From IMG/VR virus record IMGVR_UViG_3300014613_000045, positions 1 through 40,409 of that record: a stretch of 40,409 bases of DNA, one strand, 5' to 3'. Each line of letters begins with the position of its first letter. Position 1 is the first letter of the stretch. The position numbers were made by a program, and so were the translations under genes. A model generated the notes under the pieces. It saw nothing but the letters and a program-made list of their open reading frames with translations. It searched no databases and had not been told where the DNA came from. This DNA is from a virus (Duplodnaviria; Caudoviricetes). This document shows positions 1 to 39,491 of the stretch, piece after piece.

Positions 1-105
1 CCGAACCACCGAAGCCCGAACCACCGAAGCCCGAACCACCGAAGCCCGAACCACCGAAGCCCGAACCACCGAAGCCCGAACCACCGAAGCCCGAACCACC
101 GAAGC
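1..105 (+). repeat. Perfect 15-bp tandem repeat (CCGAACCACCGAAGC) x7, truncated by the window start
   Basis: Seven exact copies read directly from the sequence. Confidence 0.97.
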
Positions 106-119
106 CGGTGGACAAGTAA
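3..119 (+). CDS. 3' end of a gene with a Pro-rich (EPPKP)n C-terminal tail (partial)
   Basis: Frame 3 reads (EPPKP)7-VDK-stop (TAA 117-119), just ahead of the AGGAGG RBS of the next gene. Confidence 0.6.
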   Translation, partial: EPPKPEPPKPEPPKPEPPKPEPPKPEPPKPEPPKPVDK

Positions 120-12421: not shown

Positions 12422-14442
12422 TGTCTCGCGACTTCACGAAGTCCACCGCGAACTACATGAGCCTGGGGACGAACGCTCTCTCGCCTCTGCTCAGCGGTGC
12501 CACCACGATCTGCGGTCACGCCTGGGTGTGGGTCGACACGTTCGACACCGGGGCGACGGACAACAAGATTCTGACGATCATCCACGACGGAGCGAATGAG
12601 GGGCTGTCGCTGTTGCTCAGCGGGGCATCGCCAGTGCTCAAGGTGCAGGGACGCTCTGAGACCGGCGAGACGTTGCGTAGTCTGTCCGGCGCGACGCCGG
12701 TTCCCACTGGGCAGTGGGTATCAGTCGGCTTCCGGTGCGACTTCGCGAACGACGTAACGAACGCGGTCTTTCTGAACGGTAGCAGCGACAATGACGGGGC
12801 CATGTCGTGGGACACGACGGCTTACACGCCGGGCGTGCCGACACTCAATGACCGGATCGGCTCACACCCCGGCGGCGTTGTGACTCAGTGGTTTGATGGA
12901 CGGATTGCTGAAGTGGTGCTGTGGGCTGGCGACATCAGCGACGCTGGTTTTGCGGCCCTCGCGAAGGGCTGGCATCCGCCGGAAGTGGCGCGGCCGTTGT
13001 GCTACTTCCCGTTGCTCGGTGACGAGTCTTCTCTTGGCATGATTCGTGACAACTTCACAGACACAAACGGCGTGAGCCTGGATGCCCATGTGATGGACGT
13101 CGGCAGTGGTTGGGTTGAATACGCTGGGACTTGGCAAGTTAGCAATAACAAAGCAGAGATGACTACGGTCGGCGGCGGTCGGGTGGCCGCCGATTCAGGC
13201 AAGACAGATGTCACGATCACCGCTGAGGTGCATATCGGCCAAGCAGGGAGCACGCTTGCCCCCGGTCTCGTCGGTCGTTTAGCAGATGCAAATAATTTCT
13301 GGGCGGTCATCCTAAACCAGAGTGATCTTCAGCTTCAATTGTGGGAAGTAACGGGAGGGAGTGGTAGCCTACGTGACTCCGCTGGTTATTATTACTTGCC
13401 GAACACAACTTATCAGCTTGAATTGGTGCTAGACGGCACGGCAATTTCTGCAACTGATGGCAATGTCTCAGTAAGCTATAGCAGTGCAGCGCACCAATCG
13501 AACACAAAACATGGACTGCAAAACAATCAAGGTTCACCTATTACAAATCGAAACACATGGGACAACTTCACGGCGGCACGTCCCGGCTTCCGCGACGAGT
13601 ACGGCAACCAGACGGCGACGATCACCGGCACGATCGCAAAGGCCGTTCATCCGCCGAAGCGGGCTGGCATCTGGGTTCCTCAGTGGTTTGGGAACTCACT
13701 CACGATCGTTGAGTCAGTGCCGTCCGGCGACTTCGACCCGTACGACTGGGGTACGCCGATTTGGTGGATGGACGCGGCACAAGGGGTTGAACAAGCCGAT
13801 GGCGTACCGTCAACCGACGGGCAGAATGTACGAAACTGGCTAGACTCGACCGTGACCGGGATGGACTTTCAGCAAACCGTAGCATCGTGGAAGCCCTACT
13901 TTTATACGGGTGTTGTCAACGGTTATCCGGTCGTTCGGTTCGACGGTTCAGACGACTTTATGGAGCCGTTCAATTCCAATCGGTTGGGGGCATTCACAGA
14001 GTTGACGGCGTTCGTTGTCTTCAAAACAGACAGCAATTCTATATGGCAGGGATTACTAGGATACACGGACGCGGTCGGTGGCCGAACATTTCGCGTAGAT
14101 ATCGCAAATTCTGGTATAGGCAACACTGTTGCATGTCTGATCTATGCCAGTGGAAATGTATGGTTGGACGCTTCGTCCGTTGATCTATCGGACTGGCTCA
14201 TGATCACATTTACGATCCAACAATCCGGTACAGGACGGCTCTGGATTAGCAACGTTCTGCAAGACACCGAAGCAATCGGCACGCTGCAATATACTGGAAC
14301 TGGCGATTTGGCAATTGGAAAAGTTGTTGGAAACAAGTTTGATGGTGACCTTGCAGAGATCATCTACTACAACGCGGTACTCTCCGACGCCAACCGCATT
14401 GCCGCAACCGCAGCCCTGATGGCCAAGTACGGAATCACATGA
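12421..14442 (+). CDS. Multi-domain LamG/concanavalin-like adhesin
   Basis: Two LamG-like motifs (WFDGRIAEVVLW; FDGDLAEIIYYNAVLS, preceded by PVVRFDGSDD) and an inserted beta-sandwich module. Confidence 0.75.
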   Translation: MSRDFTKSTANYMSLGTNALSPLLSGATTICGHAWVWVDTFDTGATDNKILTIIHDGANEGLSLLLSGASPVLKVQGRSETGETLRSLSGATPVPTGQWVSVGFRCDFANDVTNAVFLNGSSDNDGAMSWDTTAYTPGVPTLNDRIGSHPGGVVTQWFDGRIAEVVLWAGDISDAGFAALAKGWHPPEVARPLCYFPLLGDESSLGMIRDNFTDTNGVSLDAHVMDVGSGWVEYAGTWQVSNNKAEMTTVGGGRVAADSGKTDVTITAEVHIGQAGSTLAPGLVGRLADANNFWAVILNQSDLQLQLWEVTGGSGSLRDSAGYYYLPNTTYQLELVLDGTAISATDGNVSVSYSSAAHQSNTKHGLQNNQGSPITNRNTWDNFTAARPGFRDEYGNQTATITGTIAKAVHPPKRAGIWVPQWFGNSLTIVESVPSGDFDPYDWGTPIWWMDAAQGVEQADGVPSTDGQNVRNWLDSTVTGMDFQQTVASWKPYFYTGVVNGYPVVRFDGSDDFMEPFNSNRLGAFTELTAFVVFKTDSNSIWQGLLGYTDAVGGRTFRVDIANSGIGNTVACLIYASGNVWLDASSVDLSDWLMITFTIQQSGTGRLWISNVLQDTEAIGTLQYTGTGDLAIGKVVGNKFDGDLAEIIYYNAVLSDANRIAATAALMAKYGIT

Positions 14443-16787
14443 GACCCTGGGACTACCAAGTCTGCGCGGCAATCCCGGTCTTCGGATCACCGGAAGCGGT
14501 CAAGGTGTGTATTGACACGCTCCGCTGCCAGACAGAGCGTCCCTGCATTGTCCTGGTGGACACCGGAAGCAACTCAGACGACTTTGCCGAGATCGAAGCG
14601 ATGCGAGCCGATGACTGCGAAGTTCATGCGATCCGCACGCGGGCAACCATTCATCCGCATGACAACGTTGCCTCCGCGATGGACTTGGCATTTTCACTCT
14701 GCCGATCGCCGTTTCTGTTCGCAACGCATGCCGACTGCTTTCTGAAACGGCGGGAACTGCTGGCCGAGATGGTCGAGTTGTGCAAGTCGAAATCGCCGAT
14801 CGTCGGGTACGGCATGTCACCCCGGAACTTCCCGGCACACCGCTGGATGGTGTCGCACGTCTGCACGATGTTCGATATGAAAGTGATGGACCGGATCAAC
14901 GCTGGGTGGTGTCAGCGCCGGCTTGTGGTGCAAGAGGGCGACGGCAAGACGCGGGTGCATGAACCGATCCGGGGCGGCTGGCCTGACACGGATTTGTTCT
15001 GGAACTACCAAGCAAAAGCCGCCGGGATCACGCCCTACCGGATCGGGCGCGAGCCGAGAGCCGACACGTCCTTTGAAGATCACAACATAGAACACTCGCG
15101 AGGCGGCGGCAACGTCCAGGGAAACGGGGAACTCATAACACGACTCGGTGCGGCGGTCGAACGGGCTCGCGAGCGGCTGAGAGAATGGAACGTTCCCAAC
15201 ACGGAACTGGCCGGGCCGATTCGCGATAATGTCCGAGTGAAGCCGGCCAGTCTCGTGCGGGATGCCGGGCCGGATGTGGTTTTGCCCAGACCTATCGCCG
15301 TTGTGATTCCGGCCGCTGGTTCACCGGACCTGACGTCTCGGTGCCTCGATCACTTGTGTTGGTATGCCGACGTGCCTTTTGATGTCATCTATGTCGACAA
15401 TGGTGGTACGCCGGACGTGGCTGAGAGAGTAGCGAGCCATGCCGAACGGCTGGGACTCGACCTAGTAACGATCCATAACTCGACAAATCGAGGATTCACG
15501 GCGGCCGTCAACCAGGGGATTCGAGCGGCGGCCGGTCGTCACGTGCTCCTGCTAAACAACGATTGTTTCATCGGGCCGGGTTGTCTCATGCGGATGCTAT
15601 CCCACCTCCAGACTGACCGAGTTGCGGCCGTGGGGCCTTTCACGAGCGATGGTGGAATTCAGTCGCTCCATCGCCAAAAGAACGTCAACATGGCGTGCGT
15701 GGGGAAAGACCTAGAACTTGACGACTCCCTCACAACGGCTCTCGCATTAACGGAGAACGCCGGGAGGTCGAAGGCGATCACGCGGCTCGCGTTTTTTTGT
15801 ACTTTGTTGTCGGCTGATGCGATCGACGAAATTGGAGACCTTGACGAGCGTTTCGCAAACCTCGGTTCAGACGACGACTGGTGTGTCCGCGCCCAAACAG
15901 CGGGCTGGCAGGTGCGGATTGCCCTGGATGCTTACGCATGCCACATACACAAGGCGACGTTTGAACGCCTTGGTTTTGATCGGCGCCAAATGCAACTCAG
16001 GGCGGAAGCAGCAAAACGGAAAAGCAGCACATGGCGGTGCATTCTGGCCGTGCCGGTCTTTAACCGGCTCGAATACGTTCGGCAGTCTCTGGAGTCGATA
16101 ATCGAACAAGACTATCCAGCATTGCGGACAATCGTGTGGGACAACGGATCGGACGACGAAACGCGAGTATATCTTGAGCAACGTCTTGCGAACGTGCCAC
16201 ACGTGACGCTGATTCGCGCGCCGGTAAACATGGGTTGCGTGTATCCGCAATCTGTGATCTGGAACCGTTACGCGCATCAAGCCGAACTGCTCGCAAAACT
16301 CGATAGCGACATGATCGTACCTCCCGACTGTATTTCCCGGCTTGCGGCAGCGTGCCAAGTATCTGACCGACTTGGATTTATGGGTGCCTTTCACTTTCGC
16401 GCGGACGGAGAGCAGTGGATCAACCCTGACCGCATCGTCAATGAGGGAAAATTATCGTTTGTCAAGCAGCAGCACGTCGGTGGGTGTGGGATGATTCGAG
16501 CCGACGTGTACCGGGCAACCGGGCCGATCAAGGTCCCGTTGAACGCCAGCAAAAAACCGTTTGCGGATGGCAGTTTTACCATCTATCAACTCGCGCTGAA
16601 TGAGGCGGGCTACCTTAACGGCTATCCGTCCCCGTTGATTCACATCGACCAAATGGAGGATACGCGATCGTCGCACTCAATTGAAACGCCGGAGTACATT
16701 GCTTACAAGGTTGAGATGCGAGGACGGACGCCAGCACAAGTGACGCAGTACAGTTGGATCAAAAATGCTAAACGGAACCTTGGCTAA
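14439..16787 (+). CDS. Triple GT-A (GT2-like) glycosyltransferase
   Basis: Three domains: AIPVFG..LVDTGS..THADC; VVIPAA..YVDNGG..NRGFTAAVNQG..LLNND..DDDWC; AVPVFNR..WDNGSDD..KLDSD. Confidence 0.88.
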   Translation: MRPWDYQVCAAIPVFGSPEAVKVCIDTLRCQTERPCIVLVDTGSNSDDFAEIEAMRADDCEVHAIRTRATIHPHDNVASAMDLAFSLCRSPFLFATHADCFLKRRELLAEMVELCKSKSPIVGYGMSPRNFPAHRWMVSHVCTMFDMKVMDRINAGWCQRRLVVQEGDGKTRVHEPIRGGWPDTDLFWNYQAKAAGITPYRIGREPRADTSFEDHNIEHSRGGGNVQGNGELITRLGAAVERARERLREWNVPNTELAGPIRDNVRVKPASLVRDAGPDVVLPRPIAVVIPAAGSPDLTSRCLDHLCWYADVPFDVIYVDNGGTPDVAERVASHAERLGLDLVTIHNSTNRGFTAAVNQGIRAAAGRHVLLLNNDCFIGPGCLMRMLSHLQTDRVAAVGPFTSDGGIQSLHRQKNVNMACVGKDLELDDSLTTALALTENAGRSKAITRLAFFCTLLSADAIDEIGDLDERFANLGSDDDWCVRAQTAGWQVRIALDAYACHIHKATFERLGFDRRQMQLRAEAAKRKSSTWRCILAVPVFNRLEYVRQSLESIIEQDYPALRTIVWDNGSDDETRVYLEQRLANVPHVTLIRAPVNMGCVYPQSVIWNRYAHQAELLAKLDSDMIVPPDCISRLAAACQVSDRLGFMGAFHFRADGEQWINPDRIVNEGKLSFVKQQHVGGCGMIRADVYRATGPIKVPLNASKKPFADGSFTIYQLALNEAGYLNGYPSPLIHIDQMEDTRSSHSIETPEYIAYKVEMRGRTPAQVTQYSWIKNAKRNLG

Positions 16788-16802
16788 ATTACAGGAGAAA
16801 GC

Positions 16803-17375
16803 ATGTACTACACAAAATATGTAAGCATGGTTGCTGCTTTGCACAGGCATCCTGAGTATGCGGGCATTGATACGGTCGTCGAAACCGGGACTGCAACGGG
16901 TGACTTCGCTATGACGCTGCGCAACCTGTTCGATCATGTTCACACGATAGAGCTGTCCGACCGTTTATTCGCGGAAGTCGGCAAGAACTTTCGCGACAGC
17001 AAGGTTCATTTTCATCACGGCGATTCAGCTATCGTGGTGCCGGAATTGTCTGTCGAAATCAATCGACCTTGTATCTGGTATCTCGACGCCCACTATTGCA
17101 AGCAGTATGAAGGTCGTGCGGCCGGCCAAAAGATGTTCCCCCTGTGGCAAGAACTTGCGGCAATTCGGGCACGGCCGTATGCCGAGATCGTCATAGTGGA
17201 TGATGTGCATAATTTTGGACGGTTCCGTGGCGAGAATTGGGGCAACTGGGAGGACGTGTCAGAGACCACCATCTGTGAGGCACTCGATCAGAGCAGAACG
17301 TTTGACGCCTATTTCGCCAAACGTGAATTCGTTGTGTACCGCAAAGGAGCAGAGAAATGTCAACAGGCGGAGTAG
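16803..17375 (+). CDS. SAM-dependent methyltransferase-like protein
   Basis: VETGTATG, HTIELS, HGDS, YLDAH, IVDD motifs. Confidence 0.75.
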   Translation: MYYTKYVSMVAALHRHPEYAGIDTVVETGTATGDFAMTLRNLFDHVHTIELSDRLFAEVGKNFRDSKVHFHHGDSAIVVPELSVEINRPCIWYLDAHYCKQYEGRAAGQKMFPLWQELAAIRARPYAEIVIVDDVHNFGRFRGENWGNWEDVSETTICEALDQSRTFDAYFAKREFVVYRKGAEKCQQAE

Positions 17376-18097
17376 CCATCTGTCACTACAATCGAACCAG
17401 CCATCTACAGCATATCATCCAGTGCGTGAAGAAAACGACGCCGGGTTGGGTCAAGGTGATCGTCTGCGACGATAGCTCGGAGCAAGCTGACGTGGTCGCA
17501 CAAATCTGCGACGAGGAGCAGGTTGTTTTGATCCGGGGCAAGAGCAGGGGCAACCCCGGAAACAAAAATCGCGCTCTGTTTGCCCTACAGGACTGTGATT
17601 ACGTTTGCCTCCTTGAAGACGACTGCAAGCCCGTAAGCGATGGATGGTTTGAGGCATACGCAGCGGTCGCTGCTGAGTTTGGAATCAACCACTTTTGCCG
17701 AGTTGTCGAAAAACGCACTACACCGGCGGCGCCAGAGATCGACAGACACGTAAAGGAGTTGCTTGGGTACACGCTGGAGTATAGCAGCAAGCTTCGCGGA
17801 GACATGATTTTCGTCACTAGGCGAGTTTTGGAGATTGTCGGCGGATGGTGTCCGATGTTCCGTGGATGTGGGCACGCTCACCAGGAATGGTCGGGGCGTA
17901 TTTTCAGGGCTGGTCTAATCGCCCACCCAAATCGCTGGATTGATTTGGTCGAATGCGAGTGGGAATCGATCGGCGACCGCCAAGGCGGACGGTGGAATGA
18001 AGAGGAAGAGTGCACGAAGCAGATTGCCAGAAATGAAAAAATCATGCTGGAGATCAGCAACACACCAGTAGTGTATTGGCCGCTACGGTTTGAGTAA
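17357..18097 (+). CDS. GT2-like glycosyltransferase
   Basis: HYNR, VIVCDDSS, NKNRAL, LLEDD, VGGW..F.G.G. Confidence 0.85.
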   Translation: MSTGGVAICHYNRTSHLQHIIQCVKKTTPGWVKVIVCDDSSEQADVVAQICDEEQVVLIRGKSRGNPGNKNRALFALQDCDYVCLLEDDCKPVSDGWFEAYAAVAAEFGINHFCRVVEKRTTPAAPEIDRHVKELLGYTLEYSSKLRGDMIFVTRRVLEIVGGWCPMFRGCGHAHQEWSGRIFRAGLIAHPNRWIDLVECEWESIGDRQGGRWNEEEECTKQIARNEKIMLEISNTPVVYWPLRFE

Positions 18098-22095: not shown

Positions 22096-22179
22096 GTCGA
22101 GGTGGCGAAATTGGCAACCGCGCTGGATTGAGGGTCCAGTGCCCGCAAGGGCTTGGGGGTTCAAATCCCCCCCTCGACA
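22096..22179 (+). tRNA. tRNA-Leu(GAG), no encoded CCA; candidate attP site
   Basis: Acceptor GTCGAGG/CCTCGAC, anticodon arm CTGGA-TTGAGGG-TCCAG, long variable arm GCCC-GCAA-GGGC, T arm GGGGG-TTCAAAT-CCCCC, discriminator A. Confidence 0.93.
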
Positions 22180-22361
22180 CTCGTGGAGGGGTCAAGGAAG
22201 TCAGTCAGCAGTCGTTCGACTTTTTCCAGCAGCCGAATGCAGAGGTAGTTTCCGTCGAAGACTCCATCGTGGGGGTCCGCCACTCGACCGGCCACATCGG
22301 CGGCGTCGATCAACAGCCGAATGGTTGCCTCTTGGCGATCACTGATTTTGGGGATCGGCAT
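22161..22361 (-). CDS. Small hypothetical protein overlapping the tRNA 3' end (antisense)
   Basis: AAAGGAA RBS before MPIPKISDRQ; 66 aa. Confidence 0.4.
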   Translation of the reverse strand: MPIPKISDRQEATIRLLIDAADVAGRVADPHDGVFDGNYLCIRLLEKVERLLTDFLDPSTSVEGGI

Positions 22362-23022: not shown

Positions 23023-23214
23023 GCAGTGAAATAACTCGCACAGCCGCTCCCCCGGAACGTAAGCCGGGGGAAGTCTCGGCACAGCCGAGAGTGTACGCGG
23101 CGAAACGTATGTCGCCGGCACTCCGCCAACTGACCGACGAAGTCCTGGTTAGCGGCCAGCCGTTGCAACGGTGCGGAACGGGCCGGCTGTGCGAGTTTAC
23201 TGGTGGCACCAGAG

Positions 23215-23284
23215 TCCCCCGTACGCCAATTGGAGAGCGGCCCGTATTCGCGGGTGTATGCCGGTTCGAGTCCGGCCGGGGGGT
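23215..23284 (+). ncRNA. tRNA-like RNA 1 with a non-canonical anticodon loop
   Basis: Acceptor TCCCCCG/CGGGGGG, D-loop with GG, stem GCCCG/CGGGT with a 6-nt loop, T arm GCCGG-TTCGAGT-CCGGC. Confidence 0.65.
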
Positions 23285-23321
23285 GGGCCGAGTCGACAGC
23301 CCCTCTGGTGCTACTTTGCAC

Positions 23322-23406: not shown

Positions 23407-23470
23407 CTTTCCGCAGACTCCGCTACCCGCGAGGGCGCGGCGGTTCACACTAACCGAAAGGATGGCAGGG

Positions 23471-23857
23471 ATGCTCGTACTTACTCGCCGTGAGGATCAG
23501 AGGATTTTGGTCGGCGACGACATCGTGATCACGTTGGTAAGGCTAGGGAGTTATGCGGCACGCATCGGCATCGACGCGCCGCCTGACGTGGATATCCGGC
23601 GGGAAGAGGTGCCAGAATTGGAGCGTGACGATATTTACTCCGAGCGTATCGCCAAACTGAAAGAAGATGTCGCCCGGCTTCAGGCAATTCTCGACAATTG
23701 GATTCCGATGCCCCAAATCATGGGCGGCTGGGGGGAACCGGACGCGCCGGATGATGCTGTCGCGTTGATCCGCGAAGCGTGTGAAATTCGCGGTGTCGAT
23801 TTTTCGGAGCATCAACGGCTAGTTGCTGCCCAACTGCCAAGGGAGCAACCGCAATGA
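23471..23857 (+). CDS. csrA: CsrA/RsmA-family translational regulator with C-terminal extension
   Basis: MLVLTRREDQRILVGDDIVITLV......RIGIDAPPDVDIRREE is the CsrA signature. Confidence 0.88.
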   Translation: MLVLTRREDQRILVGDDIVITLVRLGSYAARIGIDAPPDVDIRREEVPELERDDIYSERIAKLKEDVARLQAILDNWIPMPQIMGGWGEPDAPDDAVALIREACEIRGVDFSEHQRLVAAQLPREQPQ

Positions 23858-24153: not shown

Positions 24154-24855
24154 ATGCCAGACTACACTGAACTGAAGGCAGAGGTTCTCACACGTTTCGC
24201 GGGCCACGACTACACACCGGGAGGGCCGTTGGTTTATGCGTGGCATGTTCATCATGGCATGTTGTGTGAACTCCTGAGCGAACCGATCGCGAACAGGATC
24301 GATTGGATCATCATCAACAAGCCGGCACGCGAGATTCCGATCCGTTGTGCATGGTTGTGGCCAGTCAAGGGAGCACTACCAGCCGAGTTGAACAAGGCAT
24401 GGATCGAGTGGGACAAGGCATCAGCCAAGTTGAACAAGGCATCAGCCAAGTTGAACAAGGCATGGATCGAGCAGAACAAGGCATGGATCGAGTGGGACAA
24501 GACATCGGCCGCGTTGAACAAGGCATCGTCCGAGTTGAACAAGGCATGGATCGAGCGGGACAAGGCATGGATCGAGCGGGACAAGGCATCAGCCAAGTTG
24601 AACAAGGCATCAGCCAAGTTGAACAAGGCATCAGCCAAGTTGAACAAGGCATCGGCCAAGTTGAGCAAGGCATCGGCCAAGTTGAGCAAGGCATGGATCG
24701 AGCAGAACAAGGCATCAGCCAAGTTGAGCAAGGCATCGGCCGAGTTGAACAAGGCATCGGCCGAGTGGAGCAAGGAACTTGAAGCTCTTCATGCGGCTGA
24801 GTTACCTGGCTGCCCGTGGAACGGAAAACAGTTGGTGTTCAAGGATGAAGAATGA
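24154..24855 (+). CDS. Heptad-repeat coiled-coil protein
   Basis: ~19 units of 21 bp encoding (L/W/Q/R)(N/D/S)KA(WIE/SAK/SAE); unique N- and C-termini. Confidence 0.75.
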   Translation: MPDYTELKAEVLTRFAGHDYTPGGPLVYAWHVHHGMLCELLSEPIANRIDWIIINKPAREIPIRCAWLWPVKGALPAELNKAWIEWDKASAKLNKASAKLNKAWIEQNKAWIEWDKTSAALNKASSELNKAWIERDKAWIERDKASAKLNKASAKLNKASAKLNKASAKLSKASAKLSKAWIEQNKASAKLSKASAELNKASAEWSKELEALHAAELPGCPWNGKQLVFKDEE

Positions 24856-24992
24856 TGCTCGTACTCAGCAGACGTGAAGGGCAGAGGATTTTGGTCGGCG
24901 ATGACATCGTGATCACGCTGGCACGACTCGGCACGGAGTCGGCACGTATCGGCATCGAGATTGCAGAAAACGAACAACGGAGGATCGGATAA
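24852..24992 (+). CDS. Second, truncated or chimeric CsrA homologue (46 aa)
   Basis: MMLVLSRREGQRILVGDDIVITLARLGTESARIGIEIAENEQRRIG; coupled to both neighbours; not in the ORF track. Confidence 0.75.
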   Translation: MMLVLSRREGQRILVGDDIVITLARLGTESARIGIEIAENEQRRIG

Positions 24993-27525: not shown

Positions 27526-27571
27526 CCCCGGTTGCCCGGCCTCAGACGTGCGGGCCGGGTGGCTGGGGTTT
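27526..27571 (+). terminator. GC-rich intergenic hairpin, possible terminator or processing site
   Basis: CCCCGGTTGCCCGGCC/GGCCGGGTGGCTGGGG followed by TTT. Confidence 0.4.
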
Positions 27572-27577
27572 GGAAAA

Positions 27578-28030
27578 ATGGAGAGTGAGATGGAGATTAC
27601 ACGACTGCTACTTGAGTCGAACGGTGCGCATTGCAGTCAGGTTGACACATTTGCGGCCGAGTGGCCGAACGGGGCGAAGGTCACGAAAAAGAACTGTTTG
27701 CGTGCTGCCGCGTTGTATTTAGACATTGACTGGGCGGCAAACAAGTTTCTTCTATCCGGCTCGGCGTGGGAGGCGTACTGGGAAGGCGAGGACAGGGCGT
27801 GGAAGGCGTGCAAGGAAGCCAATGCCAGGGCGTCGAAGGCGTACTGGGAAAAAAATGCCAAGGCGTCGAAGGCGTACAAGGAAGCCAATGCCAGGGAGTG
27901 GAAGGCGTACTTGAAAGCCAATGCCAGGGCGTCGAAGGAGTACGAGAAAGCCAATGCCAGGGCGTCGAAGGAGTACGAGAAAGCCAAGGCCATGGCGTTT
28001 TGGAATGCAGCGAAGCTGACAACGGCATAA
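27578..28030 (+). CDS. 11-residue-repeat helical protein
   Basis: 33-bp repeats encoding A(S/W)K(A/E)Y.(E/K)ANAR. Confidence 0.7.
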   Translation: MESEMEITRLLLESNGAHCSQVDTFAAEWPNGAKVTKKNCLRAAALYLDIDWAANKFLLSGSAWEAYWEGEDRAWKACKEANARASKAYWEKNAKASKAYKEANAREWKAYLKANARASKEYEKANARASKEYEKAKAMAFWNAAKLTTA

Positions 28031-28214: not shown

Positions 28215-28643
28215 TTGTCCGCACGCGATGAAATCACCGTCGAGATGGATGCCACGCTCTGGCGTGAAGTCGTCCACGACCTGACGGGTCTAATCCGCCA
28301 GCACAACGCCCACGCTCGCAACTGTGCCACGCTGACGCGCTGGCGTGATTACTTTGCCGAACAGGTTCCGGCGGGCTGTAGCGGGCTTGTGGGCGTTCGT
28401 GGCGACGTGAGCAACTTCGCCCAGCTTGCCAGGTGGCTGATGAAGTACCGGATGCCATCGCGGCTCGCGGTCCAAACGGCGGTTGCACGGGCGATGCATC
28501 CGGGCCGGCCTGCAGTGCGGGTGGACGCGGCGACTATGGCCGGTGCTCGGCAAGCGGCTGCCGAGATGGATGCCGGTGGGGACGGGGTGCTGCATCCGCC
28601 GGAGTGTGATTGCGTGTTTTGTGATCCGGAGGATGAAACCTGA
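28215..28643 (+). CDS. Hypothetical protein (TTG start, C-terminal HPPECDCVFC)
   Basis: GGAGG RBS 7 nt before TTG; TGATG coupling to the next gene. Confidence 0.5.
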   Translation: MSARDEITVEMDATLWREVVHDLTGLIRQHNAHARNCATLTRWRDYFAEQVPAGCSGLVGVRGDVSNFAQLARWLMKYRMPSRLAVQTAVARAMHPGRPAVRVDAATMAGARQAAAEMDAGGDGVLHPPECDCVFCDPEDET

Positions 28644-28930
28644 TGGCGGTTTACGTCGATGCCCTGTTCTCAGTAGAGCAGCAACAAGGATACTGCGGCT
28701 GGCAATGGACGCAAGCCTGCCACATGTTCGCGGACACGACCGCAGAACTTCACGCCTTTGCCAAGCGAATCGGCCTGAAGCGAGCCTGGTTCCAGAACAG
28801 CCGGCATCCACATTACGACCTGACCGCGACAAAGCGACGTCGGGCGTTGGCTGCCGGTGCGGTCGAGCTGACGGAGGAAACGAGGAAGCAGATCGTCAAA
28901 CGTGACCGGAGAGCAACCGATGCCGAGTGA
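28643..28930 (+). CDS. DUF4031-like protein
   Basis: VYVD...CHMFADT..ELHAFAKRIGLKRAWFQ...HYDLT..KR..A...GA. Confidence 0.8.
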   Translation: MAVYVDALFSVEQQQGYCGWQWTQACHMFADTTAELHAFAKRIGLKRAWFQNSRHPHYDLTATKRRRALAAGAVELTEETRKQIVKRDRRATDAE

Positions 28931-28931
28931 C

Positions 28932-29021
28932 ATGAAGATCACAGCCATCGCCCCGTGGTTCGGGAGCAACCGCACGCTCGCGATGCTCCCCGGCGAATCG
29001 AGCGGAAGGGATTGGCCGTAA
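28932..29021 (+). pseudogene. N-terminal stub of a Dam/D12-class DNA adenine methyltransferase that runs into the GGA-NN array
   Basis: MKITAIAPWFGSNRTLA resembles the P(W/Y).GGK..LA N-terminal motif; stops after 29 codons. Confidence 0.5.
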
Positions 29022-29219
29022 CGGACAGGAGGGGAACGGACCGGATCGGAAGGGACGGGATGGGCCCGGAGTGGCCGGAACGGAACGGACCGGATCGGAA
29101 GGGAAGGGATGGGAATGGCCGTAACGGATTGGACGGGAAAGGAGTGGAGGGGATGGGATCGGAATGGATCGGAGCGGAAGGGACAGGACTGGAGTGGCCG
29201 TCATGGACCGGAGTGGATT
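29004..29219 (+). repeat. GGA-NN pentamer array 1 (36 pentamers, 4 delimiters); candidate guide-RNA array
   Basis: Delimiters GGCCGTAAC 29014, GGCCGGAAC 29073, GGCCGTAAC 29117, GGCCGTCAT 29196; blocks of 2, 10, 7, 14 and 3 pentamers. Confidence 0.95.
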
Positions 29220-29264
29220 CGGTTTACCGAGCGGCAGTTATAACCCAAAAAGGAGTGAAATGAA

Positions 29265-29981
29265 ATGGCGACGAAGACGACAACACGAAATCGGATTGCA
29301 GGGAACGGAGCGGATCGCACGGCAAAGGACAAGGACGGCTTTGTTGTCCGCGTGGAAATCCCCGCACTGCAACAGGGGGAAGCGACGCTGATGCTGATTG
29401 GTGACCGCCCGCTGCTGGTCAACAACAAGCTGAACGTGGCTCAGGGTATTGCCGAGCAGTACGGTGGCGTCGGCGGAAAGGCTGGGACGGTCAAGAAACC
29501 ATCAGCGACCCCCGACGAGCAATACGCTCATGCGTTCTACACTCTTCTCGACAGCAACCACGCGGCCCCGCACGAGAAGGCGCGGTACGGTGTGCCGGTC
29601 AGCGGCATCAAGAAATGTGCTTGTTCTGCGATACGCACAACGGGGATCACCGACAACACAACGATCGGCTTGATCGCCAAGTCATTCTGGGTCCTTGGTG
29701 ATTCCGGCGGGTTGTGTCTGCTGAAGTACGACCGCCTGGAGCGGGACGTCCGCCCCGTTAACATCGGCAGCGGTCAGAAAACGGTTCCGCAGATGCGATA
29801 CCGGCCAATGTTCCACGGTTGGTCGATCAGGCTGCGGGTCAAGTTCAACCGCATGGTGATCACCGAAGACCAACTCGTGAACCTGTTCATGCACGCCGGG
29901 CAGTACATCGGCCTGTGTGAGATGCGAGCCGAGAAGAAGCAAGGCGAGTGCGGCGGTTTTGTGGTAGAGGGCTCATCCTAG
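29265..29981 (+). CDS. Stand-alone Cas7/RAMP-like protein
   Basis: RAMP-like order: strand + LIGDRPLL, VPVSGIKKC..SA helix, thumb-like DVRPVNIG...RYRP, WSIRLRVKF, C-terminal Gly loop AGQYIGLCEMRAEKKQGECGGF; AAGGAG RBS. Confidence 0.7.
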   Translation: MATKTTTRNRIAGNGADRTAKDKDGFVVRVEIPALQQGEATLMLIGDRPLLVNNKLNVAQGIAEQYGGVGGKAGTVKKPSATPDEQYAHAFYTLLDSNHAAPHEKARYGVPVSGIKKCACSAIRTTGITDNTTIGLIAKSFWVLGDSGGLCLLKYDRLERDVRPVNIGSGQKTVPQMRYRPMFHGWSIRLRVKFNRMVITEDQLVNLFMHAGQYIGLCEMRAEKKQGECGGFVVEGSS

Positions 29982-30409
29982 TAGCGGAACGGAGCGGATT
30001 GGAAGGGATGGGATCGGACCGGAGCGGATCGGAGCGGAATGGCCGTAGCGGATGGGATGGGATTGGAACGGACAGGACGGGAGCGGATCGGATCGGATCG
30101 GAGCGGAATGGCCGTAGCGGATTGGACCGGATCGGAAGGGACAGGACTGGAGCGGACGGGAAAGGAGCGGACGGGAGAGGATGGGATCGGACCGGATCGG
30201 AGAGGACTGGATCGGAACGGCCGTAGCGGATCGGATCGGAGCGGAAGGGAGCGGAGCGGATTGGAAGGGATCGGAGCGGAGCGGCCGTAACGGAACGGAG
30301 TGGAGCGGAGCGGATGGGACAGGAGCGGATGGGAGCGGATGGGATCGGAGCGGAATGGCCGTAGCGGATTGGAACGGATCGGAATGGCCGTAGTGGAACA
30401 GAACGGATT
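29981..30409 (+). repeat. GGA-NN pentamer array 2 (74 pentamers, 6 full delimiters); candidate guide-RNA array
   Basis: GGCCGTA(G/A)(C/T) at 30041, 30110, 30219, 30283, 30357, 30386; blocks of 11, 12, 20, 11, 13, 4 and 3 pentamers; begins at the stop codon with a partial delimiter GTAGC. Confidence 0.95.
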
Positions 30410-30428
30410 GGCTGGAAAGGAATAACCA

Positions 30429-30962
30429 ATGCCAAAAACACGATTAGAGTACACAATGTCGGATCACTGCCGCATTTCGCGTGCGGACAGGGACGTCTTT
30501 CTGAAGTGGCTGAACGACAATCCGGAGTTTAAAAAACGCCGGCCGACGATCGACGAGCTGATCAAGGAAACGCGGCGCCGGGGAAGCAAACTCAAAACGC
30601 TGCTCGAGCAGGACGTGCAGGCAGCCGCAGAAATCTACTGGCGGCAGCGGGCTCAATACCTGTTGCGGCATATCAACGTCGTCAAAATCGACATCCGGAC
30701 CAACGAAGCGACCACCAAGCCGGTCTGCGCGTACATCCCGGTCAGGATCGAACGCGATGGGCGGATCGACGAAGAGAACTACATACCCGCCCAGCGCGTC
30801 GCGAACAACCCGTCCATGAGGCAAACCGTTCTCCAGAGAGCACACGCTGACTTTCTCTCGTGGATGCACCGGTGGGAACGGTACGAGGAATTCATGCAAA
30901 CGTTTTCTCCAGTGCTCACGGCCTACCAGGAGATCGAAGCGGAACTGGAAGCGGTCGCGTGA
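30429..30962 (+). CDS. Helical protein; putative accessory gene of the RAMP/array module
   Basis: AAGGAA RBS at the array end; L...LEQDV..AAE.YW..RA..LLR.I motif; remnant pentamers follow the gene. Confidence 0.7.
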   Translation: MPKTRLEYTMSDHCRISRADRDVFLKWLNDNPEFKKRRPTIDELIKETRRRGSKLKTLLEQDVQAAAEIYWRQRAQYLLRHINVVKIDIRTNEATTKPVCAYIPVRIERDGRIDEENYIPAQRVANNPSMRQTVLQRAHADFLSWMHRWERYEEFMQTFSPVLTAYQEIEAELEAVA

Positions 30963-30981
30963 AACCGGAGCGGAGAGGCCA

Positions 30982-31341
30982 ATGGAACCGCATGACTGCG
31001 AACACGAGTTTCCCGATCATAGCGTGCTGTCTGCGGCGGAGGCAATGAGAGTGATTTACTATTGGGAAATCATACTGGATCGGAAGCCGCATCAGTGCAT
31101 GGCGGGCTGGCGCGGAGTCCCCATAGCGGACCTGCCATCCACGGAACTGGAGAAACCTATGCGGAAGCACGTGCAGATAACCGAGCCAGGTACAGCCACA
31201 CACCTCGCTCTGGCGGTCCTGTTGGATGTGGTCGAGTCGATCAGAGTCGGTGAAGTGGTCGTGTTTCCATGCAGCAATGAAAATCAGGAGTACGAAGTCA
31301 CGGTCACGAAGACGACACCGCAAAAACATGCCGGGGCGTAA
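30982..31341 (+). CDS. Hypothetical protein
   Basis: GGAGAGG RBS; operon position. Confidence 0.55.
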   Translation: MEPHDCEHEFPDHSVLSAAEAMRVIYYWEIILDRKPHQCMAGWRGVPIADLPSTELEKPMRKHVQITEPGTATHLALAVLLDVVESIRVGEVVVFPCSNENQEYEVTVTKTTPQKHAGA

Positions 31342-31361
31342 GGTAGAAATGGAAGGCACGG

Positions 31362-32198
31362 ATGGCCGTTGATTGGATTAAGATGAGGACGGACCTGTAC
31401 CGCGACCCAAAGGTCTGCATCATCACCGATTTGCTGATGGATTCAGAGGGCGAGCTGGCCCGCTACGTCAACCAAAACATGCAGCGTGATATGACCGTTA
31501 CGCGGAACGTTATGCGTAACGTTACGGTAGGCGCTTTGGTGACAGTGTGGGGTGTTTTGCGTCACCGTGGTAAGCGAATCAACGACGATTTGTTCGTCCG
31601 TTGTTGTACAGTGTCGGTCATTGACGACCTTGCGGACATTCCCGGATTCGGCGAAGCGCTTCTAACGGTTGGCTGGGCCGTTCAAACTGATGAAGGCGTT
31701 GTTTTGCCGAGATTTTTCGAGGATTACAACGTCGATCCACTCGAAGAAATCCGAGCAAAGGGGCGGGAGCGTCAACAGAAATATCGTGAACGACAGAAGG
31801 AAAAAAGCTGTACAAGGTGTGACGTTACAGTAGCGTCAGAACGTAACGCTAGAGAAAAGAAGAGAAGAGAAGAGAAGAGTAAGAAGAATACCCCCTTACC
31901 CCCTTTTGAATCTCAGCAGTTTGCAGACGCTTGGCAGAAGTGGTTGGAGTACCGAACGGAAAACCACCACCCGGCTTACAAGCCCAAGGGACTGCAGGCT
32001 TGCTGGACCAGACTGGCGGAATTTGGCGAGTCAGAAGCGATCAAGGCGATTCGATTCAGCATGGCACAAGGCTGGCGCGGGATTTTTCAGGACACGGGTG
32101 CGTCCGGAAGCAACGGCCGTTACCAAACCAAGGCTGAACGCGCGGCGGACGTCGTCCGCAACGTCAATGCAATGTTGGAAAAAGGCAGAGACACATGA
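31362..32198 (+). CDS. Phage replication initiator (lambda O-like architecture)
   Basis: DWIKMRTDL..DPKV N-terminus, RERQQKYRERQK linker, W..W..YR....SM..GW.GIF C-domain; internal iteron-like repeats. Confidence 0.8.
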   Translation: MAVDWIKMRTDLYRDPKVCIITDLLMDSEGELARYVNQNMQRDMTVTRNVMRNVTVGALVTVWGVLRHRGKRINDDLFVRCCTVSVIDDLADIPGFGEALLTVGWAVQTDEGVVLPRFFEDYNVDPLEEIRAKGRERQQKYRERQKEKSCTRCDVTVASERNAREKKRREEKSKKNTPLPPFESQQFADAWQKWLEYRTENHHPAYKPKGLQACWTRLAEFGESEAIKAIRFSMAQGWRGIFQDTGASGSNGRYQTKAERAADVVRNVNAMLEKGRDT

Positions 32199-36491: not shown

Positions 36492-37073
36492 ATGCAACGC
36501 AAAGATCGATATCAACTCAACACAGTAGAGCCTTTCTCGGCAGATGCGGAGGCGACACTTACTCGAAACGCGCAGTCAGGGGACATCGAGGCTCGAAACC
36601 AGTTGGTTGAATCCATGATTCCGTGGGTCATTCATCTGGCAGGGCGTTTTCACGACCGGATTGACGGGGCAATTGATTTACACGATTTAATTCAGTGGGG
36701 CAATATTGGTCTGATGACGGCCGTCGACAGACTTGACCCCTGTAAGGGGCGGCTGTCAACGTACTCGCGGTACTGGATACAGAGAGAAATGTGGTCGGCA
36801 TACTATCAGGAGCGCCGACATGGTTTAACGTTGTCACTAGATGATCTTGGCGGCAACATTGCAGCTCCGGAACAGTGGTGTGAAGAGTACAACCGGATGG
36901 AATGGACTCTGCGATTTCTCCATGATCGAGAGAGAGACATCATCATGTCCCATTTTTATGGGGAGAGTTTTCATCAGATCGGACGACGGTTAGACCGTAG
37001 CGCCGCACGGATACGGCAAATCTTTCTAGCAGGGGTTGAAAAGTTGCGCTGGATACAGGGGGAGAAACCATGA
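36492..37073 (+). CDS. Sigma-70 family RNA polymerase sigma factor
   Basis: GDIEARNQLVE, DLIQWGNIGLMTAVDRLDP.KGRLSTYSRYWI (region 2); L.DRERDII...SF.QIGRRL..S..RIRQI (region 4). Confidence 0.92.
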   Translation: MQRKDRYQLNTVEPFSADAEATLTRNAQSGDIEARNQLVESMIPWVIHLAGRFHDRIDGAIDLHDLIQWGNIGLMTAVDRLDPCKGRLSTYSRYWIQREMWSAYYQERRHGLTLSLDDLGGNIAAPEQWCEEYNRMEWTLRFLHDRERDIIMSHFYGESFHQIGRRLDRSAARIRQIFLAGVEKLRWIQGEKP

Positions 37074-37615
37074 AGCGAACCATCCTACTCGCGGCTTTGT
37101 TTCTGATGCTCACCGCAGAGGTGGTGTGCGTTGCCGGAGATGAACCGCTCGACGGCCTGTTGACCCAACTTGTGCAGGACTCGGAGCAGGTTGAGCAGAA
37201 GAGCAAGGCGCTTCACGCTCGTCTGCAGGAGGCACGCAAGGCTCAGCAAGAGCGAGATGAAGCCTGGCGGCAGCAAGACGAGGAAACGTGGTACAGCGTT
37301 TTCAGCAAGAACTTCGTCGTGACGGCGATCGGCAAATCCTTTGCGGAAGACATCCTCGCGGCAGCGGAGGCGTACCGCATGGAGTTGGCACCTGATCTCG
37401 CACCGGGGAACGAGGAAGTGCTGATTCATGTCGGCATAACGGACGGGCCGGAAGACAACTTCGCGCTCGTCAAAGGGAGACCGCCGTTTGTACGTGGTGC
37501 TCATCGCGTCTGGTTGGAAACGAGCCGTCAGAGGGCGACCGGTGACGGGTTGAAGGCAGAATTGAGGAAGGTGTTTGAAGGGCCGCAGACACTACCGGAA
37601 GGGCAAGTGATATGA
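37070..37615 (+). CDS. Secreted hypothetical protein
   Basis: Signal peptide MKRTILLAALFLMLTA. Confidence 0.7.
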   Translation: MKRTILLAALFLMLTAEVVCVAGDEPLDGLLTQLVQDSEQVEQKSKALHARLQEARKAQQERDEAWRQQDEETWYSVFSKNFVVTAIGKSFAEDILAAAEAYRMELAPDLAPGNEEVLIHVGITDGPEDNFALVKGRPPFVRGAHRVWLETSRQRATGDGLKAELRKVFEGPQTLPEGQVI

Positions 37616-37923
37616 AGCGAACCATCCCCATCGCGGCCCTGTTTCTGATGCTCACCGCTGTGTGCGGGTGCCAACCGCAACCGCAAGTCAATATGTCGGA
37701 TGTGATCACGGACTGGTATGTCCAAGATGTTGATACTGGAGAACGGTTCGGCCCGCTTCGATTTCGGGATCAAGCGGAAAGTTGGCTGGACTACTTCCAA
37801 ACAGGAGCAGACTCGCCAAACAACCTTCGGATCGTGTTCATGGAACCACACAACGGACAACTATTGGAATGGGATAAATGTGCGGGGCCAATCATGCTTG
37901 ACCGGGAAACGAAACTGCCATGA
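37612..37923 (+). CDS. Putative lipoprotein
   Basis: Signal peptide MKRTIPIAALFLMLTAVCG-C, lipobox-like. Confidence 0.6.
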   Translation: MKRTIPIAALFLMLTAVCGCQPQPQVNMSDVITDWYVQDVDTGERFGPLRFRDQAESWLDYFQTGADSPNNLRIVFMEPHNGQLLEWDKCAGPIMLDRETKLP

Positions 37924-39491
37924 AACGAACCATCCTACCCATTGCGGCCCTGTTTGTGATGCTCACCGCCGTGTGTGTGGCAGCCAGCGACTATCCGGCC
38001 GTCGTGAAAATCAAGAACGGATGCACGGCAGTGTGTGTCTCGTCTTCTGGGCTGATAATGACCGCGCGTCATTGTGGCACAGATGCCAGTGTCATTGTTG
38101 ACGTTGGGGGCAAGGATGTCCCCGCCACGTTGGTGCATGTCGGCAAGGATGCCGGCGACGCACCCGTGGTTTACGACATGGATGGCGACGGCTATCAGTT
38201 CGTGCGGGTCGGCAAAAAGGTGCCCGATGTCGGCGATGCGGTCTACTGCGTGGGGTATCCGGACGGCGATACCGAGAACAAGATTGTGCTGAAGGGCAAG
38301 TTGACCGGCGGGGCCATATCAATTGACGGGCTGCGCGGCAACGTCGTGGACTTTCAGGGGATGCACGGCATGAGCGGCTGCCCGTTGTTCAATGCCGCAG
38401 GCGAAGTGATCGGGCTACTCCACGGGGCGGCAGCTAACGGGAGTCTGTATCTGGGAGCCCTCTCCACGCGGGCAGCGTATGAAGCCGTTGCAGGCAAGGA
38501 ACCTGCCGCTGGGTGTCCACCTGGCTGCAAAGAGGGCCAATGTGGGAAGAGTGATGAGAAACAAAAGCCGGTTCTGTACGTGTTCACGCTGCCCGACGAT
38601 CAGTGCCCGCCGTGTGTCGCTTTCAAGGCTGACGTTCGATCCGGTTTCTTCGATCAATACCAGGTAGAGTATGTGACCTGGAGCGGCAATAGCTGGGATC
38701 ATCCTGGAATCGCGGCGGCATTCCGCACATCGACGGGGTTGACCCAGGTTGAGGGCACGCCAACGTTTTGGGTAAAGGGTGCCACGAAAGCGCAAGCTGG
38801 CTACGAGCCAAAACAACGCAATCATCTCATCTCTTGGTTAGATGGAATTGCTCGAGCCGTCATTCGCGTGCCAGAGGCGGTGGTGGGAGTCCCTTCCGAT
38901 TCTCCCCCCCTCCCACCACCGCCAAAGGAAGAGGCACCAGTACCGACGCTTGGGGCACCGTCGCCACTCGCAGGCGACGTGACAGCAAGCATAGACTGGG
39001 CTGGCGTGACGCTGGTGGCCCTTGCCTCGGATGCGACGCCTAAACTTGCACGGTTTCTCCGCGGGCCGGCGGTGCGGGCTATTGAGTCGCTCAGCGGCGG
39101 TAAGGCCGTGCTGGTCATCGTCGCTAAACGGACAGAGCCATCGCGATACCAGGCCGCCGTGGAAGCGGCTAGTGTAGAACCGAGTCCGTTCTATCTGCTC
39201 GTGCTGGCGGAAAAGCAAGACCTCGGATTGAAAGGGCTGATTGCCAAAGCGCTCGAGGGGAAGGCGGCCGAGGCCCTGGGTGAGAAAGTCCCGCTACCGA
39301 TCAAGGTTATCTTTCAACGGGTCAACGGCAGACGCTTTGCGGCAATCAAGGATGCCCTGTTGACGGCTGAGCCCTCGCCATTCGTACGGGCCGAGGAAAG
39401 CCCAGACGACGAGGAAGACGTGCCATGGTATGCGGGCCTCGTGGGAGTGTTGGGGCCGGCGGTGAAACTGTGGAAGGGGAAAAAGGCGTGA
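37920..39491 (+). CDS. Secreted trypsin-like serine protease fused to a thioredoxin-like domain
   Basis: Signal peptide; TARHC and GMSGCPLFN..GEVIG; CPPC motif; Pro-rich linker. Confidence 0.85.
   Translation: MKRTILPIAALFVMLTAVCVAASDYPAVVKIKNGCTAVCVSSSGLIMTARHCGTDASVIVDVGGKDVPATLVHVGKDAGDAPVVYDMDGDGYQFVRVGKKVPDVGDAVYCVGYPDGDTENKIVLKGKLTGGAISIDGLRGNVVDFQGMHGMSGCPLFNAAGEVIGLLHGAAANGSLYLGALSTRAAYEAVAGKEPAAGCPPGCKEGQCGKSDEKQKPVLYVFTLPDDQCPPCVAFKADVRSGFFDQYQVEYVTWSGNSWDHPGIAAAFRTSTGLTQVEGTPTFWVKGATKAQAGYEPKQRNHLISWLDGIARAVIRVPEAVVGVPSDSPPLPPPPKEEAPVPTLGAPSPLAGDVTASIDWAGVTLVALASDATPKLARFLRGPAVRAIESLSGGKAVLVIVAKRTEPSRYQAAVEAASVEPSPFYLLVLAEKQDLGLKGLIAKALEGKAAEALGEKVPLPIKVIFQRVNGRRFAAIKDALLTAEPSPFVRAEESPDDEEDVPWYAGLVGVLGPAVKLWKGKKA

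What the first reader, a model, noticed from the sequence alone, without database searches (positions are those of the whole stretch)
29004..30990. Candidate phage RNA-guided system: lone Cas7/RAMP-like gene between two GGA-NN pentamer arrays, plus an accessory gene
Seen: a 238-aa ORF (29265-29981) is bracketed by two same-strand arrays (29004-29219 and 29981-30409) with ~110 pentamers in strict 5-nt phase. GGA is nearly invariant (2 exceptions) while the last two bases vary. A 9-mer GGCCGTA(G/A)C divides the arrays into units, and a 177-aa gene follows. Knowledge: the ORF has the motif order of RAMP/Cas7 backbone proteins, which polymerise along a guide RNA with a fixed nucleotide step. No cas1/2/3/5/6 gene or repeat-spacer CRISPR array is in the window. 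Inference: each delimiter-bounded unit is a processed small RNA coated by one subunit per pentamer, with GGA as the protein handle and the NN pairs spelling a discontinuous target. No nuclease is linked, so the likely output is binding or silencing, for example of rival phages. From memory and unverified, this resembles recently reported viral VIPR-type systems with GGY/NN repeats; the GGA constant triplet would be a distinct variant.
Basis: partly seen in the sequence, partly recalled or inferred. Interest (0 to 1): 0.97.

Follow-up and report, generated by a model that had tools for sequence, protein, structure and literature searches.

The report
GGA-type VIPR with one-strand guides
This phage carries a VIPR system, a CRISPR-related RNA-guided gene silencer described in 2026, whose guide repeats read GGA instead of the usual GG-pyrimidine, and across its relatives the guides are predicted to pair almost only with the coding strand of target genes, which hints at a strand-restricted or even mRNA-directed version.

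Summary
In detail: a 238-aa RAMP gene between two pentamer arrays (107 of 108 regular units GGA-NN), then a 177-aa partner. The protein folds like Csm3/Cas7 and its family profile hits SUSP1 Vipr (E 1.9e-5), so this is a VIPR system. The 9-nt 'delimiter' is a 1-nt overlap between guides, matching the text description of the published 'staggered' layout. GGA marks a whole clade (26 of 36 loci; none GGY). A sister clade uses GGY. This scan already noted GGA-NN VIPR on other DNA (e1-5330577), and other non-canonical triplets are in print. New here: the clade's NN pairs match the reverse complement of codon positions 1-2 (r 0.92-0.93; sense about -0.1). This supports the 1-nt wobble skip and implies nearly all guides pair with the coding strand, whereas GGY relatives are mixed. 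Decoded that way, guides of two unrelated relatives spell the terminase motif AG(L/F)DLG. No target was found for this window's own guides, and expression is untested. Most likely it silences rival phage genes on DNA; mRNA targeting is not excluded. Verdict: new variant of a known kind.

The parts
29004..29219 (+). Upstream staggered array; predicted guides start at 29018 (11 pentamers), 29077 (8) and 29121 (15); junctions at 29014, 29073, 29117, 29196
29251..29255 (+). AGGAG ribosome-binding-site-like motif 9 nt before the vipr start
   Evidence: sequence
29265..29981 (+). vipr: 238-aa stand-alone RAMP; N53, S113, G114, R124, R180, E219, M220, R221 align with SUSP1-type H17, E71, M72, K82, R138, D177, W178, R179
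29981..30414 (+). Downstream staggered array; predicted guides start at 29981 (12), 30045 (13), 30114 (21), 30223 (12), 30287 (14), 30361 (5); junctions at 30041, 30110, 30219, 30283, 30357, 30386
30429..30962 (+). vap accessory gene: 177 aa, mostly helical, conserved beside vipr in the clade; no Pfam family or solved fold recognised

Best explanation
This is a phage VIPR system of the staggered-array kind with a GGA handle, whose roughly nine guide RNAs would each be coated by one Vipr subunit per pentamer and are predicted to pair with the coding strand of rival-phage genes, likely silencing them on DNA. Shown: RAMP fold, Vipr kinship, GGA arrays and the vap gene across a clade. Inferred from guide statistics: the NN pairs read codon positions 1-2, skip the wobble base and are almost all antisense. 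Inferred from SUSP1: cutting of the early-operon transcript near each junction into 45-110-nt RNAs, filament assembly, triplex-type dsDNA binding and transcriptional block without cleavage. The smaller residues at the third-base pocket (S113/G114 for E71/M72) likely make room for A. In two relatives the likely target is the terminase nuclease motif of related phages; this window's own targets are unknown.
For: AlphaFold2 model pLDDT 90.9; all listed Foldseek rows with E<=0.001 are CRISPR RAMP chains, best E 1.1e-5; 94-sequence profile hits SUSP1 Vipr, PDB 36pp, E 1.9e-5. G1/G2 contact residues R180, E219 and R221 are invariant in 94 of 94 homologues; the non-target-DNA clamp K82 maps to R124, kept in 90% or more. 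26 of 36 proteins in the clade have GGA arrays, 1 is mixed, 9 have none called (mostly contigs ending at the gene), none GGY. 1,026 NN from 127 distinct guides correlate r=0.93 with reverse-complemented codon positions 1-2 and -0.09 with sense; 100 of 127 guides favour antisense against 79.8% expected if all are antisense and 19.6% if all sense; 7 of 7 window guides tested do. It holds for 24 loci (r 0.92, antisense share 0.89-1.0 by bootstrap), four other codon backgrounds (r 0.74-0.88) and after removing base marginals (r 0.79, p 0.0003). The best of 6,697 cross-locus guide pairs (13 of 14 bases; 5 shuffles reached 12 at most) decodes to AG(L/F)DLG, present as AGLDLG in 86 of 120 homologues of a clade member's terminase; 0, 0 and 2 of 1,000 shuffles matched as well.
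Against: No RNA, binding or silencing data. Five window guides scanned in viral contigs gave only chance-level matches (92/95); scans of all guides against 233 kb and 898 kb of related DNA showed no excess over shuffles. The terminase motif was first picked by eye; two of the three guides come from sibling phages, a fourth look-alike guide was not significant (212 of 1,000), and only 2 of 9 pattern matches lay in frame in a terminase. The codon-pair order test was not significant (z 0.97). Locus L044 goes the other way (2 of 9 antisense). Small residues at 113/114 also occur in GGY relatives, so they do not by themselves explain A. SUSP1 VIPR silences from either strand, so DNA silencing does not predict a one-sided bias. 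Support for the GGA branch is only SH-aLRT 80 in a quick tree.
Confidence: 0.65

Rival explanations
1. The GGA clade has switched to RNA: guides antisense to mRNA with a wobble skip let the filament block translation or destabilise rival-phage transcripts, as type III CRISPR RAMPs engage RNA.
For: Near-total antisense polarity is what RNA targeting requires; the GGY sister clade is mixed (0.60 sense, 0.22 antisense). SUSP1 VIPR can form a guide-ssRNA duplex (720927). A D130-N131 insertion after helix 1 is conserved in the clade and absent from GGY relatives.
Against: The basic residue that clamps the non-target DNA strand is kept (K82 to R124). In SUSP1, RNA targets give mostly incomplete filaments. 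A strand-dependent transcription roadblock or strand-biased guide origin would give the same statistics.
Confidence: 0.2
2. The polarity reflects how guides are made, not how they act: new guides are copied from one strand or from transcripts, and the complex itself works on either DNA strand.
For: Guide acquisition is not explained in the parts of the VIPR papers read; the bias runs evenly along guide positions 1-8 and vanishes at the fixed ends; related guides recur within loci.
Against: No acquisition factor is linked; the nearby PD-(D/E)XK gene is an ordinary phage exonuclease (phrog_69; Cas4 only E 0.008). GGY relatives with the same layout lack the bias.
Confidence: 0.1
3. The arrays act mainly as CsrA sponges, like CsrB or RsmZ (recalled: CsrA binds GGA motifs), and Vipr merely packages them.
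For: csrA lies in 4 of 7 GGA-clade virus records (two copies in this window) against 1 of 14 GGY/GGC-clade records (Fisher p 0.025).
Against: A sponge needs no codon-like NN content; A at the first N (the ANGGA position) is 0.29 against 0.27 expected from the codon model. Records are fragments and host lineage confounds the count. A side effect of CsrA on these RNAs is not excluded.
Confidence: 0.04

Closest known systems
VIPR systems with 'staggered' vrRNA arrays (bioRxiv 10.64898/2026.04.26.720920, results text and legend of fig. S18; figure not seen)
   Same: Stand-alone RAMP plus one vap gene in a phage, tail-less pentamer guides overlapping by 1 nt, unit lengths mostly 8-14, no cas genes or CRISPR array.
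   Different: Fixed triplet is GGA, first unit GTA; guides are predicted to be almost all antisense. The paper lists NNNGG among alternative repeats, which would include this, but names no GGA system in its text.
Type II VIPR of coliphage SUSP1 (720920; structure 10.64898/2026.04.26.720927; PDB 36pp)
   Same: Homologous protein (E 1.9e-5); G1/G2 contacts and non-target-strand clamp conserved; wobble-aligned 1-nt skip.
   Different: SUSP1 has separate guides with a structured 3' tail, a pocket said to exclude purines at base 3, GGY>GGA among the handle changes tested (the text says handle perturbation abolished silencing; figure not seen), targets on both strands, and a vap with no detectable similarity (Felixounavirus VpaE1 copy).
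Non-canonical VIPR arrays (GAC/NN, CAC/NN, WGT/NN, TGH/NN; bioRxiv 10.64898/2026.10.21.760802)
   Same: Vipr-fold protein beside pentamer arrays with another fixed triplet.
   Different: GGA is not named in the text; the full list of 21 clusters is in fig. S10, which I could not see, so it may be there.
Class 1 CRISPR backbone RAMPs (Csm3, Cmr, Cas7)
   Same: Fold (TM 0.35-0.50 by query), guide-coating filament.
   Different: No Cas1/2/3/5/6/10 among 47 ORFs scanned, no repeat-spacer array; 5-nt step and gapped code.

Membership tests
VIPR | Vipr protein with RAMP fold (RRM core, thumb, G-loop), homologous to described Vipr | tested here: met
VIPR | Minimal locus: vipr plus vap, no cas genes or CRISPR array | tested here: met
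   Pfam on 47 ORFs, tandem repeats, PADLOC on 5 window proteins; vap conserved. The record is about 34% complete.
VIPR | Viral genome | tested here: met
   tail, tape-measure and replication genes; virus record
VIPR | Flanking pentamer repeats: fixed triplet plus variable NN (GGY or a related consensus) | tested here: met
   107 of 108 GGA-NN, 15 of 16 dinucleotides used; fits the NNNGG class named in the methods
VIPR | NN pairs read with a 1-nt skip aligned to the wobble position | tested here: inconclusive
   Indirect support from codon-phase composition and a terminase motif; no full-length natural target found
VIPR | Guides are expressed as small RNAs that co-purify with Vipr | not testable with these tools
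   needs sRNA-seq and pull-down
VIPR | RNA-guided dsDNA binding and transcriptional silencing | not testable with these tools
   clamp residue conserved; activity untested
Staggered-array VIPR | Successive guides overlap by 1 nt, no tail | tested here: met
   9-nt junctions in 130 parsed guides; in L038 and L041 the shared G starts a full GGA unit; compared with the legend only
Type II VIPR (SUSP1 / P. fulva) | GGY handle | tested here: not met
Type II VIPR (SUSP1 / P. fulva) | Conserved structured 3' tail after each repeat tract | tested here: not met
   units abut through 9-nt junctions
Class 1 CRISPR-Cas | Repeat-spacer array and further cas genes | tested here: not met
CsrB/RsmZ-type CsrA sponge | GGA motifs selected for CsrA binding (ANGGA excess); family match | tested here: not met
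   no Rfam match at gathering score; no excess of A at the first N

The most novel reading that the evidence does not exclude
The GGA clade is an RNA-targeting branch of VIPR: an orthogonal, purine-handle Vipr that reads mRNA codon by codon, skipping the wobble base, so that each guide in effect spells a peptide motif (such as the terminase AGLDLG) in antisense. It would be a missing link between DNA-binding VIPR and RNA-targeting type III CRISPR.
Probability: 0.2. Interest if true: 0.88.

Novelty: new variant of a known kind. Interest (0 to 1): 0.55.

Why it matters
GGA is a handle that the SUSP1 protein is described as excluding, so this clade likely offers a non-cross-loading VIPR for multiplexed gene control and a natural test of how the third-base pocket sets specificity. 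The one-sided polarity makes two open questions directly testable: whether some VIPRs act on RNA or only from one DNA strand, and how new guides arise. It also gives a practical decoding rule (read the reverse complement as codons) that turns guides into peptide motifs for target hunting.

Tried and rejected
Targets of window guides: exact 16-18-base gapped scans of viral contigs for 5 of 9 guides gave 3, 8, 0, 31 and 13 matches, none extending beyond chance (best 22/30, 19/26, 20/24, 20/22). All guides against session DNA, skips 0-3, including the window itself (98 guides, 233 kb; 78-110 guides, 898 kb, skips 0-2) and against 97 Vipr proteins: no excess over shuffles; a lone 17/18 match (L001 guide on L111) lies in a frame with stops. 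Junction hairpin: the junction could form a 3-bp stem, but its pairing probability in the folded array was 0.0. Codon-pair order test not significant. vap: no Pfam family, no Foldseek match with E<=0.001, best VIA Z 5.1 on the C-terminal helices only; one longer relative among 7,997 candidates; so no nuclease was recognised, but its fold is not shown to be new. Expression: no RNA holder listed. Promoter scan: no sigma-70-like site on + in 28600-31400. Array turnover: none seen in four runs. Host: not determined; the only GTDB locus (L052) is a 15-kb contig in a Spongiibacteraceae bin. A single pocket residue that separates GGA from GGY was not found. The wide profile search over representatives and a Vipr-Vap complex prediction did not run, so distant relatives and any Vipr-Vap contact remain untested.

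Full report
Observation. The locus lies in the early, replication-linked + strand region of a phage record (40,409 bases, about 34% complete; runs that hold it are labelled groundwater metagenome). Array 1 (29004-29219) precedes a 238-aa ORF (29265-29981), array 2 starts on its stop codon, and a 177-aa ORF follows (30429-30962). Of 108 regular pentamers 107 are GGA-NN. Runs reach 20 units, while 100 Markov simulations never passed 3. Ten 9-nt junctions shift the phase by one base; 7 of 10 read GGCCGTA(G/A)C. Read as GGCC plus a first unit GTA-NN, they define nine units of 5-21 pentamers.

The protein. 97 homologues were found among 251 candidates, 46-73% identical apart from the protein itself; 94 were aligned (three short ones left out). 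The AlphaFold2 model has pLDDT 90.9, and every listed Foldseek row with E<=0.001 is a CRISPR RAMP chain (best E 1.1e-5, TM 0.35-0.50 apart from a Cas6 at 0.25). The profile hits one PDB sequence below E 1: SUSP1 Vipr, 36pp, E 1.9e-5. A Felixounavirus Vipr whose numbering agrees with the structure paper at 11 of 12 named residues maps H17, R138, D177 and R179 to N53, R180, E219 and R221 (all invariant in the 94), the DNA clamp K82 to R124, and the pyrimidine pocket E71/M72 to S113/G114. GGY relatives also have small residues there, so the cause of the A preference is not pinned down.

The clade. Three scans gave 15, 36 and 1 loci, and a scan with a 30%-identical GGY relative gave 20 more. After dropping near-duplicates and fragments under 150 aa, 61 proteins were classed by the third base in flanking GG runs: 26 GGA, 13 GGY, 2 mixed, 20 uncalled. 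In a quick tree 36 rows group together (SH-aLRT 80) with all 26 GGA and no GGY; 18 rows (support 100) hold all 13 GGY. Both groups have 9-nt junctions; in L038 and L041 the shared G opens a full GGA unit, which is the 1-nt overlap in the legend of fig. S18 of 720920. L007-L009 (33-38% identical) carry degenerate A-third arrays, and L013/L014 CA-type arrays. The vap gene has tblastn matches in 26 session loci; its fold was not recognised.

What the guides encode. Under the published 1-nt skip with the wobble base skipped, each NN is codon positions 1-2, read directly or as reverse complement; skips of 0, 2 or 3 would mix all phases. 130 guides were parsed; with the first and last two units dropped as partly fixed, 127 distinct guides gave 1,026 NN. 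They correlate 0.93 with antisense positions 1-2, -0.09 with sense, and at most 0.49 with other phases; 100 of 127 favour antisense, as expected (79.8%) if all are antisense. An independent parse of 24 loci gave r 0.92 and an antisense share of 0.89-1.0 by bootstrap over loci, while 11 GGY loci (388 NN) gave 0.60 sense and 0.22 antisense. The result held with four other codon tables and after removing single-base marginals (r 0.79, p 0.0003; other phases 0.12-0.50). Against it: L044 leans sense, L042 and L052 are neutral, the codon-pair order test was not significant, and GGY residuals also correlate 0.56 with antisense, so the contrast with GGY rests mostly on marginals. 720920 states that SUSP1 and P. 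fulva targets occur on both strands; its counts are in a figure I could not see.

Targets. Decoded in antisense, guides of L001/L002 (siblings) and L041 read YYAG(F/L)(D/E)LG and YVAGL(D/E)LG. I noticed this by eye, but the same pair is the best of 6,697 cross-locus pairs (13 of 14 bases). A complete clade member (G003) has a terminase with YVAGVDLG. Against 120 of its 431 homologues, 3 of 121 guides beat all 40 shuffles in antisense and 0 of 121 in sense; with 1,000 shuffles 0, 0 and 2 matched as well, while a fourth guide was not significant. A degenerate pattern scan gave 9 matches: 2 in frame in one family of terminases, 1 across a terminase stop codon, 6 elsewhere. That this Asp is the first catalytic residue of the terminase nuclease is recalled, not tested. 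Other decoded motifs (GSGKT-like, LGDVLD-like) are recalled resemblances only. For this window's guides no target was found (see Tried and rejected).

Mechanism. Shown: anatomy, fold, kinship, clade-wide GGA and codon-phased antisense composition. Inferred from SUSP1: RNAs of about 45-110 nt, one subunit per pentamer, dsDNA triplex, silencing. I put 0.65 on DNA silencing through the coding strand, because the DNA clamp is kept and RNA targets assemble poorly in SUSP1; 0.2 on mRNA targeting; 0.1 on a bias from guide origin; 0.04 on a CsrA sponge. csrA is in 4 of 7 GGA-clade records and 1 of 14 GGY/GGC-clade records, but NN content shows no CsrA-type selection. Confidence that this is a VIPR system is about 0.95.

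Literature seen. 10.64898/2026.04.26.720920: whole text, plus a term search and part 5 of 5 of the supplementary PDF of PMC13142463; figures, tables and data files not seen. 10.64898/2026.04.26.720927: part 1 of 6, passages and Discussion. 10.64898/2026.10.15.759431: part 1 of 8 and passages. 10.64898/2026.10.21.760802: passages and section 4.22. GGA appears in 720920 only as a tested SUSP1 substitution and not in the main text of the other three. Searches listed no paper on a natural GGA VIPR or on one-sided polarity (20 of 33, 6 of 9, 10 of 23 and 10 of 18 hits listed). Unseen figures (S10, S17, S18 of 720920; S10 of 760802) and closed bioRxiv supplements may already show either.

Verdict. 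A real VIPR locus; a new variant of a known kind. The scan has noted many staggered VIPRs, one GGA-NN system and one with guides aimed at a packaging gene on other DNA; look-ups for a strand bias returned nothing. The GGA handle alone would merit about 0.4; the clade-wide antisense polarity, with its testable RNA-or-DNA question, lifts it to 0.55.

Noticed in passing
window 23462-23857 and 24855-24959: Two csrA-like genes 4-6 kb upstream of vipr; csrA is in 4 of 7 GGA-clade virus records against 1 of 14 GGY/GGC-clade records. CsrA binding to GGA is recalled.
   Followed up: partly
window 22096-22180 and 23214-23285: A tRNA-Leu(GAG) and a second, irregular tRNA-like element.
   Followed up: no
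window 24154-24855 and 27548-28030: Two ORFs built of 21-nt and 33-nt tandem repeats (7- and 11-residue helical repeats).
   Followed up: no
window 1-106: Seven perfect copies of a 15-nt repeat at the contig start.
   Followed up: no
window 14439-18097 and 36492-39491: Phage-borne glycosyltransferases, an ECF-like sigma factor and a trypsin-like protease with a thioredoxin-like domain.
   Followed up: no
L007 3596-3900, L008 3570-3950, L009 3600-4000: Distant relatives have degenerate arrays in which the third-position A is kept better than the two Gs.
   Followed up: partly
L013 2786-3662, L014 2749-3893: Vipr relatives with CA(A/C/T)-NN arrays.
   Followed up: no
runs X2-X5, loose ends over 29132-30355: Other GGA-pentamer arrays, not identical to this one, occur in the same samples, some with AT-rich flanks.
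   Followed up: no
L001 2768-4053, L002 3703-4613, L020: The last one or two NN of each guide are fixed within a locus (AA-AC, AA-AT, GC-AT), like a minimal in-register 3' handle; sibling phages L001 and L002 share some guides and differ in others.
   Followed up: partly
L044 27-639: One GGA locus whose guides lean sense (2 of 9 antisense).
   Followed up: no
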